Below are positions 30,001 through 60,000 of a stretch of 64,000 nt of DNA, piece after piece. The stretch lies in NCBI RefSeq assembly GCF_964204865.1, contig NC_135256.1:15190001-15254000 (forward strand), in the 5' to 3' direction. Source of the stretch: Styela clava. Lineage: Eukaryota. The position numbers are program-made. How positions within the stretch are numbered: the first letter of the stretch is position 1; the number at the start of each line of letters is the position of its first letter.

Positions 30001-33000
30001 GATCTATTACTGAAGCATCATTAAGCTTCAAAGTATCTTTAGTTGAACCACTAGAGAGATATTTGCCACTCTGATCAACTTTGCTTGAGCTACTCAGGCT
30101 GTTGCTTTGAGAATAATTGTTTGAGTAATGTGGATAATTATCTGCATGACTCGAATGCCTAGATGGTAAGTAAGATTCTGGTTCACTTGTATGCTTGTTG
30201 TATTTCATTGGGCTGCCATTATATTGCGAAGCGAACATTTTTGAATAAGCGTTAGCTGTATCTGCATTCATGTAACTTCTAGTAATGTCTCGATCTTGAT
30301 AACCTTGGTGCAATGGTTGGAGTCCAGCAGCAGCTTGACTAAGTCCCAAATGACCGGGGGATGGATGATAATTCTTTGGAAAAGGTGTTCTCCTGTCCAC
30401 AGCATAAGATGCAGCTTCTCTAGTAGGATCGAAAGCAGCGTATGGATTCAGATAGGATGAAAGCATATCATAAGGGGCATATGACCCAGAAAAAGATGGT
30501 GCCATCTGTTGCTGTAGAAGGCTAGAGTTTGGCAGTATTGATGAAAAGGGAGATATCCTGGGATCTATCGCATGCTGACGTAGTCTTGCTTGTGTTGAGT
30601 ACTGTAAATAAAACACAAATAATTTTTACTCAAGACCAATCATTGTGCACAATGTAGAAAACTGACACACTTTGACACATATACAACAACTTCTTTCAGC
30701 AGAGGCCAGAGATGCTAATTAAAAGGATGCAACTAGCTCAAATATGCAAAAATCCACCAAATGTGATCCATTTGGAGCTATTTCAAAATCACATTCCTCA
30801 GATTGTTTTATAATTTTAAAATCTCTGCACGTTGTAATATCAAAAATATTTGAGCAGAATAAAAAAAACGCTGCTCCCGAAGTATGCGAACCAAGATGGC
30901 GGACATCGGAACGTAACATGGGTAACAGGTTAGGGTTAGGCGATAATTTTTTTCCAATTTTCCTTATTTTAGTCCTATTATCAGTTCGAAGACTAGCCAA
31001 GAGCCTCCCGTAGTATTTATACCTAAAATTATGGCCTAACCCTAACCTAGTACACATATTACATTCCGATGTCCGCCATCTTGGTTCGCATACTTCAGGA
31101 GCCCCAAAAAAACAATAACAGTGGACAATTGGTACAAACCGGCCCCATATCTGGATATCCCGTTGCAAGATGATCATTGGCCTTTGGAGTGAAGTTTCTG
31201 TAACAAAAACAAACAATATTGACAATTTTCACTATAACATATTAAAAAAAGTGGTATAATGTTTTAGAGTTGAGAAGAAAAACTCTTCGCTGCTGCAATA
31301 TTACAATGTTTAATTGTAAACTTTATGCATAAGTATGAATTTGAGAGGGGCTGAATTCAATGAATGCATGGTTATATCCATCCCCCAGTTTAAAATGTAA
31401 AAACCATGTTCTTTTTGCTTTATCATTATTATTATGATCACTGTATTATTCAGGCTGATGAAATGGTACTCCCGTGGCATGTGTACCAGGTTAGGGTTAG
31501 GGCATAATTTTATTCGGATTTCCATTATTTTAGTTCTATAACGAGTTCGGGGACTGTCTGTGTTAGCCAAGTGAATAAACCCCCTGCCCATAGGTTTCAG
31601 TCGCTTTGCATAACTTGATGTAATATAGGCGAACAAAATTAGTTACCTCCATATTGGTTAGTACACATACTTCTGCTGGAGCAGCGATGAAATAATATAC
31701 TCTTATCTGTGACCAGTCAATTTCGAAATTAAAAAATACTTGGAGTTTAACTACCACATACGGTATGTGACATATTGCGTATTTCTGAAATCATTAATAT
31801 ACATGTATTTATTCTCACAAGGCTTACCTCAGAGAGGATTCGGATACATAGTTATGCAAATTTCTGGTTGCATCGTATTCTCCATTCTTGGGCGTGGAGT
31901 TCAGGGGAGTTGAGTTTTCTCTCCGCTAAAAAATAATAACAACTCAATATGAAACAAAATGAATTCAAACACCTAATATAATAATTTAGTCGAAGAAGGA
32001 AATAAGTCAATCGAAATGGAATTACCATCAACTTATGATGATGAAGATTGGGAAAAAGCAGTAAAAATTGTCAATAACAAACAATTTTGATATTTAAAAA
32101 ATTAATTCAAAAAATAAAAAATTCATAATTGAAAAAATATATCTCATATCTGTTTTTCGATCAAGATAGTCAATGAATTTAATACTGGGATTTATCATAT
32201 GCATATGTGATGAGTCCAATATATATTCAACTATAATCTCGGGATCAAAAAAATCAGAATTATCAGCAAAATTTATAAAAATGATTAAAACCTAGTGTCG
32301 ATGGAAATTGCTTCGAACGCAATTTATATATGATCTATTTTTCGTTGTTCTAGACGTGCGGTGTGTGCACCGCAGCTGACGACTACCGTTATATTTGTTG
32401 TTTCGAAAGTTATTTAAGAAAAGCGTGTCGTGTCGTTCTTATCGTGTAATCTTATGTTATGTTTTTTGTATAACTTTAAAGTTGTAAGTTCGGAAATGAG
32501 GAAACTGAATACTGAAACGAGGTAACCTCATGTTAGTGAATTTGATACGAAATAGAGCCAGTTCTTAAACATTTGAAAACCATCGATCTTTACAATGTTT
32601 ATAGGGTTCTCATTTGAAGTCAATTTTGAAAACAATACCGATATTCGGAGTCAGACGAACGTGTTTTGCGCAACCCAATACGTGAACCGTTAGGAGCCGC
32701 TAGAGAGATATCATCAAACGAGAGAACAAAGGAAAAGAAAAAAGGAGATAAGAGAAACTTGCGACAAGAAATGACGTCATCGGAATTAGTCTACAACCTA
32801 CCACAGCAGCCGTGGTGGTATTGCGGATGGCAGAAGGAAGCAAGGCTGGGGAAGCTGTCAGTTGTTGTCCTATGTTGTCATCGTTGACTGTCAGGCTTCT
32901 TCCGGGAACTCGAAGGACAGAGAAGGCGAAGCATAGGGTTCTTGTTCCTAACCTGGCGCTTACCGTAATTAGGGGTAAATACAATATGGTTTACAGCTTT

Positions 33001-57000: not shown

Positions 57001-60000
57001 TCCCACAAAACACCAAAGCCACATCTTCACGCTAATATTATTTGACTCGTTGAGCCACTGAGACTTAAATACCGCCGAAAATCTTCATAACTTGCGTGAA
57101 ACAAGATCATAGGTAACAAAACGGACAGAAAGGAATACGCAAACAATATCACGACTGAGTGTAGAAGTAGATATTAAACGTCAGCAAAAAGTCATACCGC
57201 AACACATTGCATTGATTATGACACGATGCGCTAACAATATTTAGCATCCTTTTCCCTTCCTTTGGCTACGTAACCGAAGTACCGACGCTTCGCCAGTTGC
57301 TTATTTTTTCAAATAACAAAGTACCCTTACTCAAAGTATATGTCGACGGCTACGATAGTTTCACATGTGCCTGTCAGCGCATTGTTCAAACTTTATTTTC
57401 CAGTCACAAAAATTAGTAATAAATCCAAATTTTGCGAGTTCATCTACAACCAATTAACGCATGATGGTAAACAATACAAATTCTCAATCTTCATTCTGGC
57501 GCTCAGGTGGACCAAACATATCATGACTTCTGCTGTTTAAACTCGGCCGAAACAAAATATGAGCCTGCACTTGTTTCCCGGACAGAGTGCGTCCAATCTA
57601 TGTAAATATGCGACAAAGTGCCAACCGCATTCGTAATTTATTTGACGAAGACACATATCGCCCCTGATCCGAACCGAGACAAAAACCGCACGCCTTTGCA
57701 GTTTATAATCGAAGCAATTTACGACAACTCGGGAGCATTCGAACATTTACCACTAGTATAAAGTAAATTTATAAGTAGGTACTTTTTAACGGCAATCAAT
57801 TCCTTTTCTAATTAAATCCGTAATTAGCACACTTGACTGTAAAAAATCTAACATAAATAAACTCATTTGCCGTGGTATTTTCGGCAAATATCGCGAGGTC
57901 GAACCTCACAATGTTCTTTAAAAATTTTAATACGGAGGCGACCATCGAGTCTGTTTTTAGTTTTGAGAGACTAGTGTTCGATGACGAATACGTCATGCAG
58001 CGAGAAGCTTGAGCATCGAGAGGCAGGCGTGCGCGTTCGTATTAAACGACAAACAGTGCATGACGAATGTGAAAGAATGAACAGAATAGCGCCGGCGGTG
58101 GGACCATATGAGCGTTTGTGCGCTATCAGAGAGAATAGAAGAAAATAAAATTACTCGCAAATAGTGAGCCGGAGGAATGAGCAAATGAGCAGGTGTGATA
58201 GAAATTCAGAGCATTTGCATAGGCGATGCTTACGCGTTTCTCAATGTTTGGGAAAGCGTTGATTTTCGATGCTGAGCGTGTGCGCTCTTGAACTTATGTC
58301 ATTTAAAATCCCTGGTATTAATTAGATAGAGGACCAACTTTAATAAAAGCATAAACGCGGGGTAGCGATTTCACAGCTAATTCGATTCGACAGATAGTCA
58401 AAAGCGCGAAGGTGATGGATGCACTGTCCTGCATTACAAACCATTTCAGTCCAAGTAGATATGGTAGCGCATTACACAAAAGCTTTCGTCAAGTAATGTG
58501 CAAGAAACAAACGTAAAAAATATGACGTCGCAATAATCGTGCGGTAACCCTGCAAAATGATTTATTTATACATAAGTTGGGATTGTCATCTTTCTAAGAG
58601 CAGAATCCACCGCAATTTTTGATAAAAAACGACGACCAAATTTTGCGCTTTAAGTAGACAACGCCAAATTTGGGAGATGTGACAATATCGAAACACGCAA
58701 TGAAATAAGACAAGGTATATCATTTGGACTGAAAGCTATGTCAACATGACACAGATAGATCGACTCTTTAAACAGTCTTATATTTCTTTGATTCATTTGC
58801 AGGATTGAACGTTGTGAAATTTCAAGTACAAAAAATCTAGAAAATGCAAGTTATCAGTTAGAGCAAAACAGAGCTAGTGAGCGATGTCAAACCAGAGCCA
58901 TTACATCTCTGGTCTAACCATAGACTCCTTCTCGATGGAACCATTATACACGTCTTTTGATTGTGTATTAATTTATTGAACACGAAACGTACATATGGAT
59001 CGTTTTGTTATTATGTTGTTGTTAGGATTCTTTTATCATTCTTGTTCTTACGAAAAAATCGCATTTCTCATTACCTACTGGACCAATTGTTTTTAGTTTT
59101 TCAGAGGTTAAAGATTGTATTCTTGCTACTAGAAGGCTTTTATTTTTGTTTATTTCAAAATCTGTGTGGCCTCGACGGGGATTCGTTTTTTTTCTGTGAG
59201 ATGAGGTCATGGAAATTAAAAATTGCGCTCCTTGTCAGGCTACTGTGATAGATTGCATACCCGCGCCATTTCGTGTCCATATATTTGAGCATCGCTCTCT
59301 TGTTGGACACGAACTGGACCCATGAATCGTTTTGTTATTAATATTCTGTTGTTGTTCTTCTTATCGTCATGAAAAAATTCTTTTCTTTTTATCTACTGGA
59401 CCAATTGCCTTAAAATTTTCAGTGGTTAAAGATTGTATTTTCGCTAGAAGGCTATTTCCCCGTGTCCATATATTTTACCATAGCTTTCTTGGTATTATGT
59501 TGTTGTACTTCTTTATCGTCTTGGGAGACATCGACCCTATTCCGCCATCCGTAACTTGACACCCATCAACCGTATTTCGTCATCCCTATTTTTAAATCAC
59601 CAATATGACATTTATGCTATCACCACTATAGATGATTTCGACTGATATTTTATCTGTTTAATCCTTGAATTTCTACTTGATAACAAAGTTCCGTACCTGC
59701 TTCAACATATTGTCGAACCCATTATTGTGCGGCTTCCACAAAGCTGTAGGTCGTAGAGTTTTCTCAAATTATCGCCGCATTTGTATACTCTCCTCATAGG
59801 GTCATTTTCAGGCCTTGAAATTTTCCTAAGTGAGGACGATTTGGTTAACATGTGGTAGATGGATTATAATAAAAAATTATTCGTTGACTCGATATTCAGG
59901 CGCGTAGATCACCATAGAGTAAGATGCCTAATGAGAGAGAGTAACAGTAACGGTAGTGCAGACAACAGGATATGTCTGAAAACATCTGCGTCGATTAGCC

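What the first reader, a model, noticed from the sequence alone, without database searches (positions are those of the whole stretch)
31140..58200. BCOR may start ~22-26 kb further upstream, nesting the intronless PTPN1/2 gene antisense inside a BCOR intron
Seen: no recognisable downstream domain exons for the orphan exon 54118-54506 were found in 36-54 kb. Its phase-2 donor joins in frame to BCOR exon 31140-31197. An in-frame route to exon 31828-31925 also exists via small candidate exons 47228-47260 (2-2), 44243-44294 (2-0) and 40493-40531 (0-0, HPYFTHMGPTGAK). The exon has uORFs in its leader, and a promoter-like GC-rich patch with a minus-strand donor lies at ~57750-58200. Known: vertebrate BCOR has alternative distant promoters in a large CpG-rich domain. 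Inference: a two-promoter BCOR with alternative N-termini, with PTPN1/2 as a nested gene sharing the proximal promoter.
Basis: inference. Interest (0 to 1): 0.65.

Follow-up and report, generated by a model that had tools for sequence, protein, structure and literature searches.

The report
Distant first exon of BCOR-like gene
The sea squirt Styela clava's BCOR-like gene does begin about 22 kb further upstream and carries a phosphatase gene backwards inside one of its introns, but the public annotation already shows this and such nesting is ordinary.

Summary
The window is Styela clava. The 91-aa peptide of the orphan exon (CDS 54118-54392, minus) is 100% identical to the N-terminus of RefSeq XP_039250687.2, LOC120328307 isoform X1.

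All 20 coding exons of that 1925-aa protein map exactly onto the window, and all 19 introns are GT-AG.

The PTPN2-like CDS is one ORF (33600-34931, plus strand; XP_039250690.1 cluster). It lies antisense in the 3.8-kb intron 2, for both X1 and X2.

Isoform X2 starts at ATG 35785 in exon 2, so two N-termini are annotated. No promoter could be tested, and a promoter shared with PTPN has no support.

BCOR identity rests on ankyrin repeats plus a weak, full-length PUFD match.

Verdict: the main inference is right, the wiring is wrong, and it is already annotated.

The parts
54118..54506 (-). First coding exon of the BCOR-like gene LOC120328307, isoform X1. The leader is 54393-54506, if the acceptor at 54507 is used. 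The CDS is 54118-54392 (91 codons plus 2 nt).
   Evidence: 100% identity to residues 1-91 of XP_039250687.2. Codon-usage score is +0.065 bits/codon, and 0 of 42 null ORFs reach it. In-frame stop at 54405-54407 and 3 upstream ATGs.
35817..54117 (-). Intron 1, 18,301 nt, by far the longest intron of the gene.
   Evidence: the other 18 introns measure 188-3824 nt. No Pfam family in 6 of 6 ORFs of 100 codons or more tested there. No ORF with a positive coding score above 0.012 bits/codon.
35750..35816 (-). Coding exon 2 (67 nt, phase 2 in, phase 0 out; encodes LTEVIKTNRDMNLVNMGLDEYK). It holds ATG 35785, the start of isoform X2.
31926..35749 (-). Intron 2 (3,824 nt), the host intron of the nested gene.
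33600..34931 (+). PTPN2-like (PTPN1/2-type) gene. The CDS is one uninterrupted 443-codon ORF plus stop, antisense to the host gene.
   Evidence: Pfam Y_phosphatase, E 3.7e-74. The exact 443-aa sequence is in the collection, clustered with XP_039250690.1. An acceptor-like polyY+CAG lies 12 nt before the ATG.
31828..31925 (-). Coding exon 3 (98 nt, phase 0 in, phase 2 out).
31140..31197 (-). Coding exon 4 (58 nt).
28864..30601 (-). Coding exon 5, the large exon (1,738 nt).
   Evidence: No Pfam or PDB match on its own.
15556..28316 (-). Coding exons 6-20: 28176-28316, 27604-27702, 27138-27257, 25121-26089, 24045-24546, 23317-23443, 23048-23128, 21914-22139, 21298-21371, 20796-20959, 20092-20237, 19491-19577, 18954-19086, 18625-18751 and 15556-16101. 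Ankyrin repeats are residues 1516-1611 and the probable PUFD is residues 1678-1780.
57851..58450 (.). GC/CpG-richer patch, a candidate but untested site of a non-coding exon or promoter upstream of exon 1.
   Evidence: It is one of 12 such patches, so it is not specific.
32551..32900 (.). GC-richer patch 0.7-1.0 kb upstream of the PTPN2-like ATG, inside host intron 2. It is a candidate PTPN 5' region (untested).
40493..47260 (-). I judge them chance AG...GT open frames, not exons of the annotated gene.

Best explanation
The window holds the Styela clava gene LOC120328307. It is a BCOR-family corepressor candidate of about 1,925 aa, with three ankyrin repeats followed by a probable PCGF-binding PUFD domain.

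The gene lies on the minus strand. Its coding sequence spans about 39 kb (15556-54392; to 54506 with the leader) in 20 coding exons.

The long form (X1) starts at ATG 54392 in a distal exon. It is then spliced over an 18.3-kb intron to a 67-nt exon at 35750-35816, and over a 3.8-kb intron to exon 31828-31925 and onward.

That 3.8-kb intron contains, on the opposite strand, the whole coding sequence of a PTPN1/2-type tyrosine phosphatase as a single ORF. This is an ordinary nested-gene arrangement.

A second annotated form (X2) lacks the distal ATG and starts at ATG 35785 in exon 2, giving a protein 102 residues shorter.

Shown: the exon chain, the phases, the nesting and the two annotated N-termini.

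Inferred:
- That X1 is really transcribed, which rests on RefSeq models whose transcript evidence I could not see.
- That X2 arises from a different 5' end. This could be an alternative start in or beyond intron 1, skipping of exon 1, or spliced-leader trans-splicing onto the exon-2 acceptor.
- That the protein acts as a BCOR-like PRC1.1 subunit.
For: Identity of the distal exon:
- The distal peptide is 100% identical over 100% of its length to XP_039250687.2. It was the only hit among 34 candidates.
- The cluster has 5 members: X1 and X2 in two versions each, plus X3.

Exon chain:
- P0001 is reproduced letter for letter from the window in 20 of 20 exons, with 19 of 19 GT-AG introns. P0002 likewise, in 19 exons from ATG 35785.
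- The older-version records (.1; P0001 and P0003 are 98% identical, 1886 of 1932 aligned positions) carry the same first three junctions.
- Split codons read directly: AT|G gives Met 92 and AG|A gives Arg 147.

Coding signal:
- The distal exon scores +0.065 bits/codon, above all 42 null ORFs (mean -0.22, sd 0.10, max 0.012). This is in the range of exon 3 (0.105) and the ankyrin exon (0.108).
- An in-frame stop 12 nt before ATG 54392 makes that N-terminus complete.

Nested gene:
- The PTPN ORF is exactly a collection protein, clustered with XP_039250690.1.

Family:
- Ankyrin families at E 1e-8 to 2e-15, and PUFD covering positions 2-108 of 114 profile positions directly after them.
- The 4 best of 6 PDB matches to the C-terminal stretch are BCORL1/BCOR PUFD chains.
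Against: - The exon 1 to exon 2 junction rests on computed RefSeq (XP_) models. I saw no read or cDNA.
- Intron 1 is about 5 times longer than any other intron of the gene.
- The distal peptide has no relative outside S. clava. One search gave 2 hits at E<=0.001 in 1.84 billion proteins: the gene itself and a repeat protein that I judge spurious. One search gave 1 of 1323 candidates, itself. No cross-species conservation therefore backs the exon.
- Its coding score is the lowest of the gene's exons tested.
- Its leader carries 3 upstream ATGs, two with ORFs overlapping the start, which is awkward for translation.
- PUFD is below Pfam's cut-off (16.0 against 29.5 bits, E 0.013). PDB E-values are only 0.018-0.088.
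- RefSeq itself calls the protein 'uncharacterized'.
Confidence: 0.82

Rival explanations
1. Donor 54117 joins directly to exon 31140-31197, or reaches exon 31828-31925 through the mini-exons 47228-47260, 44243-44294 and 40493-40531.
For: - The phases fit arithmetically.
- Skipping exons 2+3 removes 165 nt and keeps the frame.
- Two of the mini-exons lie in GC-richer patches.
Against: - 0 of 5 RefSeq records use any of these joins.
- Mini-exon candidates of this kind are as common as in shuffled sequence: 189 against 195.8 +/- 18.6.
- The 44-kb candidate has a negative coding score (-0.34 bits/codon) and the 40-kb one is about zero.
- Exon 35750-35816 explains the link fully.
Confidence: 0.04
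2. The distal exon is not part of this gene. It would be an over-extension of the automatic model, or a separate small transcript whose frame ends at TGA right over the donor if unspliced. The real protein would then start at ATG 35785 (X2).
For: - There is no homologue of the 91 aa outside this species.
- ORFs of this length are common in the flanking non-coding DNA.
- Read unspliced, the frame gives a 92-codon ORF that stops at 54116-54114.
- Intron 1 is an outlier in length.
- There are three upstream ATGs.
- X2 exists as an annotated form.
Against: - Both record versions (.1 and .2) give the same junction.
- The coding score exceeds all 42 null ORFs.
- The donor phase matches the only open frame of exon 2.
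- From general knowledge, not checked here: NCBI's pipeline issues several isoforms only with transcript support.
Confidence: 0.1
3. A proximal BCOR promoter shared head-to-head with PTPN at about 32.6-33.1 kb gives a second N-terminus.
For: A GC-richer patch at 32551-32900 lies between BCOR exon 3 and the PTPN ATG.
Against: - The annotated short form X2 starts in exon 2 at 35785, beyond the 3' side of PTPN.
- Exon 3 begins at a strong acceptor, and 3 of its 3 ATGs are out of frame. The first in-frame ATG would be 31148 in exon 4, after another out-of-frame ATG.
- In Ciona, promoters are not marked by CpG islands (PMC4691747, abstract and passages), so a GC patch says little.
Confidence: 0.04
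4. This concerns the 5' ends only. The acceptors at 54507 and 35817 are spliced-leader trans-splice sites, not cis-splice sites fed by an upstream exon at about 58 kb. X1 and X2 would then differ by which acceptor receives the leader.
For: - Both exons open with polypyrimidine+CAG acceptors.
- Exon 2 has no ATG before 35785, so a leader joined at 35816 would give exactly X2.
- About 50% of expressed Ciona genes are SL trans-spliced (PMC1488885, abstract).
- The PTPN ATG is likewise preceded by an acceptor 12 nt upstream.
Against: - There are no data for Styela. The search for spliced leader + trans-splicing + Styela found 0 papers.
- Trans-splicing at 54507 would keep the three upstream ATGs.
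- Alternative promoters also exist in Ciona: 115 of 2581 genes (PMC4691747, passage).
Confidence: 0.25

Closest known systems
RefSeq models XP_039250687.2 / XP_039250688.2 (LOC120328307 isoforms X1 and X2) and XP_039250690.1 (PTPN2-like) of Styela clava
   Same: They are the same locus. X1 and X2 are reproduced exactly from the window. The PTPN ORF is an exact collection entry in the XP_039250690.1 cluster.
   Different: Nothing in the coding parts. The records name the host gene 'uncharacterized'. UTRs, promoters and transcript support were not visible to me.
Vertebrate BCOR / BCORL1 (PRC1.1 corepressors)
   Same: - A long protein, mostly without recognisable domains, with a very large central exon.
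- Tandem ankyrin repeats followed by a PUFD-like stretch.
- This is the architecture described in review PMC13703134 (passages).
   Different: - The PUFD match is below the family cut-off.
- About 145 further residues follow it. From memory, in vertebrates it is C-terminal.
- No match of the N-terminal 300 aa to anything.
- A BCL6-binding region was not found or tested.
- The vertebrate genes are not known to me to host PTPN1/2.
Drosophila BCOR-like CG14073
   Same: [quoted passage not shown] This shows the family is not vertebrate-only.
   Different: It was not compared by sequence here.
Nested (intronic, opposite-strand) genes of animals
   Same: The whole coding sequence of one gene lies inside an intron of another, on the other strand. 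Nearly 10% of D. melanogaster genes are in such structures (PMC3814207, start of abstract in the search listing).
   Different: The nested gene is the only named S. clava PTPN1/2-type protein among the best 120 hits, not an obvious young duplicate.
PTPN1 (PTP1B) / PTPN2 (TCPTP)
   Same: - Full Y_phosphatase domain, E 3.7e-74.
- HCSAGIGRSG active-site stretch and a hydrophobic C-terminal tail, seen in the translation. That these are the family's hallmarks is recalled.
- The best named hits are PTPN2/PTPN1 of tunicates, fishes and molluscs, at 42-60% identity.
   Different: - The CDS has no intron here.
- Whether that is ancestral for tunicates was not testable.

Membership tests
BCOR/BCORL1 family | Tandem ankyrin repeats in the C-terminal third | tested here: met
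   Pfam Ank_2 E 2.4e-15 and Ank E 1.1e-14, residues 1516-1611 of P0001. PDB ankyrin matches.
BCOR/BCORL1 family | [quoted passage not shown] | tested here: inconclusive
   Pfam PF16553: E 0.013, 16.0 bits against a cut-off of 29.5, but covering positions 2-108 of 114 at residues 1678-1780. The 4 best of 6 PDB hits are BCORL1/BCOR PUFD chains, E 0.018-0.088.
BCOR/BCORL1 family | Binding to PCGF1 and assembly into PRC1.1 | not testable with these tools
   No partner sequence from this species was in hand, and no complex job was run.
BCOR/BCORL1 family | N-terminal BCL6-binding region (described for vertebrate BCOR in PMC13703134, passage) | not tested
   No profile or reference for it was available. 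The N-terminal 300 aa and exon 5 match nothing.
PTPN1/PTPN2 non-receptor tyrosine phosphatases | Single classical PTP catalytic domain with the Cys-X5-Arg active site | tested here: met
   PF00102, E 3.7e-74, profile positions 1-234 of 234. HCSAGIGRSG is seen in the translation.
PTPN1/PTPN2 non-receptor tyrosine phosphatases | Closest named relatives are PTPN1/PTPN2 | tested here: met
   named hits among the best 120 are almost all PTPN2 or PTPN1. One exception is a receptor-type alpha-like entry covering 62% of the query.
Nested gene in a host intron | The whole CDS lies between two consecutive host exons | tested here: met
   CDS 33600-34931 (+) lies between host exons 31828-31925 and 35750-35816 (-). 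The UTR ends are unknown.
Gene with alternative promoters | Two separate transcription start sites | not testable with these tools
   Only two annotated protein N-termini are seen. No transcript or TSS data were available.

The most novel reading that the evidence does not exclude
The X1-specific N-terminus (residues 1-102, and above all the 91 aa of the distal exon) is a taxonomically restricted extension. The styelid BCOR-like gene would have gained it by capturing an exon 18 kb upstream. Its inclusion would be switched by the choice of 5' end: a distal start or trans-splice site against the exon-2 acceptor. Because every host transcript must run antisense through the species' apparently sole PTPN1/2 gene, expression of the Polycomb corepressor and of the phosphatase would be coupled by transcriptional interference.
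Probability: 0.12. Interest if true: 0.4.

Novelty: already known. Interest (0 to 1): 0.14.

Why it matters
The correct model is already in RefSeq.

Biologically it gives a tidy gene map for a candidate tunicate PRC1.1 corepressor:
- a lineage-specific N-terminal exon;
- a very long first intron;
- the species' PTPN1/2-type phosphatase nested antisense.

This is useful for anyone designing knock-outs or reporters at this locus, but it is not surprising. Nested genes and alternative 5' ends are common in animals.

Tried and rejected
Homologue searches for the distal exon:
- The all-library search of the 91 aa gave only the gene itself and P0006. P0006 is a 1587-aa repeat protein matched in 6 stretches at 27% identity, which I judge spurious.
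- The N-terminal 300 aa gave only itself, 1 of 1323 candidates.
- PDB searches of the distal exon and of exon 5 gave nothing of note. One search had one hit at E 8.4. One search had 0.

Domain and RNA scans:
- Pfam on 10 ORFs of intron 1 and the upstream region found 0 families at E<=0.01.
- Pfam on the ORFs of the 58-kb patch and on ORF 62325-62738 found only E>=0.016 noise.
- Rfam gave 0 matches and tRNA scanning 0 genes.

PTPN look-up:
- The first exact look-up failed because I gave coordinates one codon short. The corrected one succeeded.
- I looked for retrogene signs after the PTPN stop and saw no A-run, only AATAAA-like signals.

Tools not available:
- Structure prediction of the C-terminal stretch was not available. 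No fold search was therefore run.
- Genome contigs, phages, plasmids and E. coli hold no tunicate DNA and were not used. Synteny in other tunicates therefore stayed unchecked.

Literature:
- BCOR + Ciona found 5 papers, none on a tunicate BCOR by title.
- BCOR / PUFD / tunicate: the 12 papers listed of 53 all have 0 uses of 'tunicate'.
- spliced leader + trans-splicing + Styela found 0 papers.

Not built:
- I built no joined coding sequence of my own for searching.

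
Full report
**What the window is.** The window has no N and about 35% G+C. I searched the 91-aa translation of the orphan exon on its own. It gave one hit among 34 candidates: NCBI XP_039250687.2, 'uncharacterized protein LOC120328307 isoform X1 [Styela clava]', 1925 aa, 100% identical over the whole query. The window is therefore tunicate DNA, not human. Its cluster has 5 members: X1 and X2 in two record versions each, plus an older X3.

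**Check of the observation.**
- The exon is as described. A polypyrimidine tract and CAG acceptor end at 54507. ATG is at 54392. 275 coding bases end in phase 2. The donor is GTGAGT at 54117.
- The leader of 114 nt has three upstream ATGs at 54496, 54491 and 54453. Their ORFs are 51, 4 and 30 codons, and two of them overlap the main start. An in-frame TGA lies at 54405-54407.
- The patch near 58 kb is somewhat richer in G+C and CpG.

None of these features alone exceeds chance:
- Open frames of 92-117 codons are frequent in the neighbouring non-coding DNA.
- Intron 1 contains 189 mini-exon candidates, against 195.8 +/- 18.6 in 20 shuffles.
- 12 non-coding patches pass the same G+C/CpG threshold, 7 of them inside intron 1.
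- In Ciona, promoters are not marked by CpG islands (PMC4691747, abstract and passages).

**What is really there.**
- Local tblastn and an exon walk show that P0001 is encoded letter for letter by 20 exons on the minus strand. All 19 introns are GT-AG.
- The first five coding exons are 54118-54392, 35750-35816, 31828-31925, 31140-31197 and 28864-30601.
- The 67-nt exon 2 takes the phase-2 end of exon 1 (AT|G = Met 92) and ends in phase 0.
- Intron 1 is 18,301 nt. The other 18 introns are 188-3824 nt.
- X2 (P0002) is reproduced in 19 exons starting at ATG 35785 inside exon 2. That exon has no earlier ATG.
- The older-version records, 98% identical in protein (1886 of 1932 aligned positions), carry the same first junctions.

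**Independent support for the distal exon.** I trained a codon-usage log-odds score on 2,664 codons of other coding sequence in the window.
- The exon scores +0.065 bits per codon.
- 0 of 42 open frames of 70 codons or more in the flanking non-coding DNA reach it (mean -0.22, sd 0.10, max 0.012).
- This is nevertheless the lowest score among the gene's exons tested, which range from 0.105 to 0.45.

**Against it.**
- The peptide has no relative outside the species. One search gave 2 hits at E<=0.001 in 1.84 billion proteins: the gene itself and a repeat protein I judge spurious. One search gave 1 of 1323 candidates, itself.
- The junction rests on computed models whose transcript evidence I could not see.

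**The nested gene.**
- ORF 33600-34931 (+) has a complete tyrosine-phosphatase domain, E 3.7e-74.
- Its exact 443-aa translation is a collection entry, clustered with XP_039250690.1 'tyrosine-protein phosphatase non-receptor type 2-like [Styela clava]'. My first look-up was one codon short.
- It lies wholly between host exons 2 and 3, on the other strand, for X1 and X2 alike.
- An acceptor-like site 12 nt before its ATG means that only the CDS is known to be intronless.
- Among the best 120 of 1987 hits, only one cluster is named as S. clava. Five unnamed clusters of 58-69% identity were not traced.

**Is it BCOR?**
- Pfam finds ankyrin repeats at residues 1516-1611.
- Directly after them is a PUFD match over positions 2-108 of 114, but at 16.0 bits against a cut-off of 29.5.
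- With the C-terminal 319 residues, the 4 best of 6 PDB matches are BCORL1 and BCOR PUFD chains, E 0.018-0.088. The other 2 are glutamate racemases at E 1.3-1.4.
- The architecture fits the family as described in PMC13703134 (passages).
- Membership is probable, not proven.
- A fold test could not be run.

**How the searches were done.** I searched my own reading of the gene exon by exon:
- the distal exon;
- exon 5;
- other exons and ORFs.

I left out the step of joining exons into a coding sequence of my own. The only full-length sequences used as queries were NCBI's records, as returned by the tools.

**Verdict.**
- The splice route and the shared-promoter idea are not supported.
- The two-promoter idea is open. 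Two N-termini are annotated, but the 5' ends are unknown and could equally be spliced-leader acceptor sites. About 50% of expressed Ciona genes are trans-spliced (PMC1488885, abstract).
- The arrangement is already annotated and of an ordinary kind. Nearly 10% of Drosophila genes are in nested structures (PMC3814207, search listing).

Noticed in passing
window 25713-25891 (minus-strand exon 9 of the BCOR-like gene): A 21-bp tandem repeat with 8.6 copies encodes a 7-aa repeat of the IPVTDKT type. P0001 and the older-version record P0003 differ by exactly one 7-aa unit here. The array is therefore probably copy-number polymorphic.
   Followed up: partly
window 33570-33600 (+): The PTPN2-like ATG is preceded, 12 nt upstream, by a polypyrimidine tract and CAG. 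The gene probably has a 5'-UTR intron or receives a spliced leader. 'Intronless' holds for the CDS only.
   Followed up: no
window 30873-30950 / 31025-31102, 31465-31675, 8085-8281: A short inverted repeat (91% over 78 nt) lies in BCOR-like intron 4, with related copies in intron 3 and near 8.1 kb. It looks like a small MITE-type element.
   Followed up: no
window 37298-37476, 58973-59161, 59300-59457: Three copies of a repeat of about 170-190 nt, at about 76% identity. One lies in intron 1 and two lie just upstream of the 58-kb patch.
   Followed up: no
window 1284-2993 (+), 3598-4434 (-), 9785-10705 (-), 13497-14558 (+): Neighbouring genes by Pfam: a GTPase with MMR_HSR1, exons with a PCI domain, a RING-variant (RINGv) protein and a Tctex-1 family dynein light chain.
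   Followed up: partly
window 60916-61494 (+): A 193-codon open frame with no Pfam match. From memory, its '...EVRWLSRG' stretch resembles hAT-type transposase remnants. This is untested.
   Followed up: partly
window 62251-63250: The largest G+C-rich non-coding patch of the window (G+C up to 0.49-0.50). Only noise-level Pfam matches were found in its ORF 62325-62738. Its nature is unknown.
   Followed up: partly
window 19378-19599 (-): The older isoform X3 (P0005) ends in a read-through of the intron after exon 17. This gives an alternative C-terminus that lacks the PUFD-like region.
   Followed up: no
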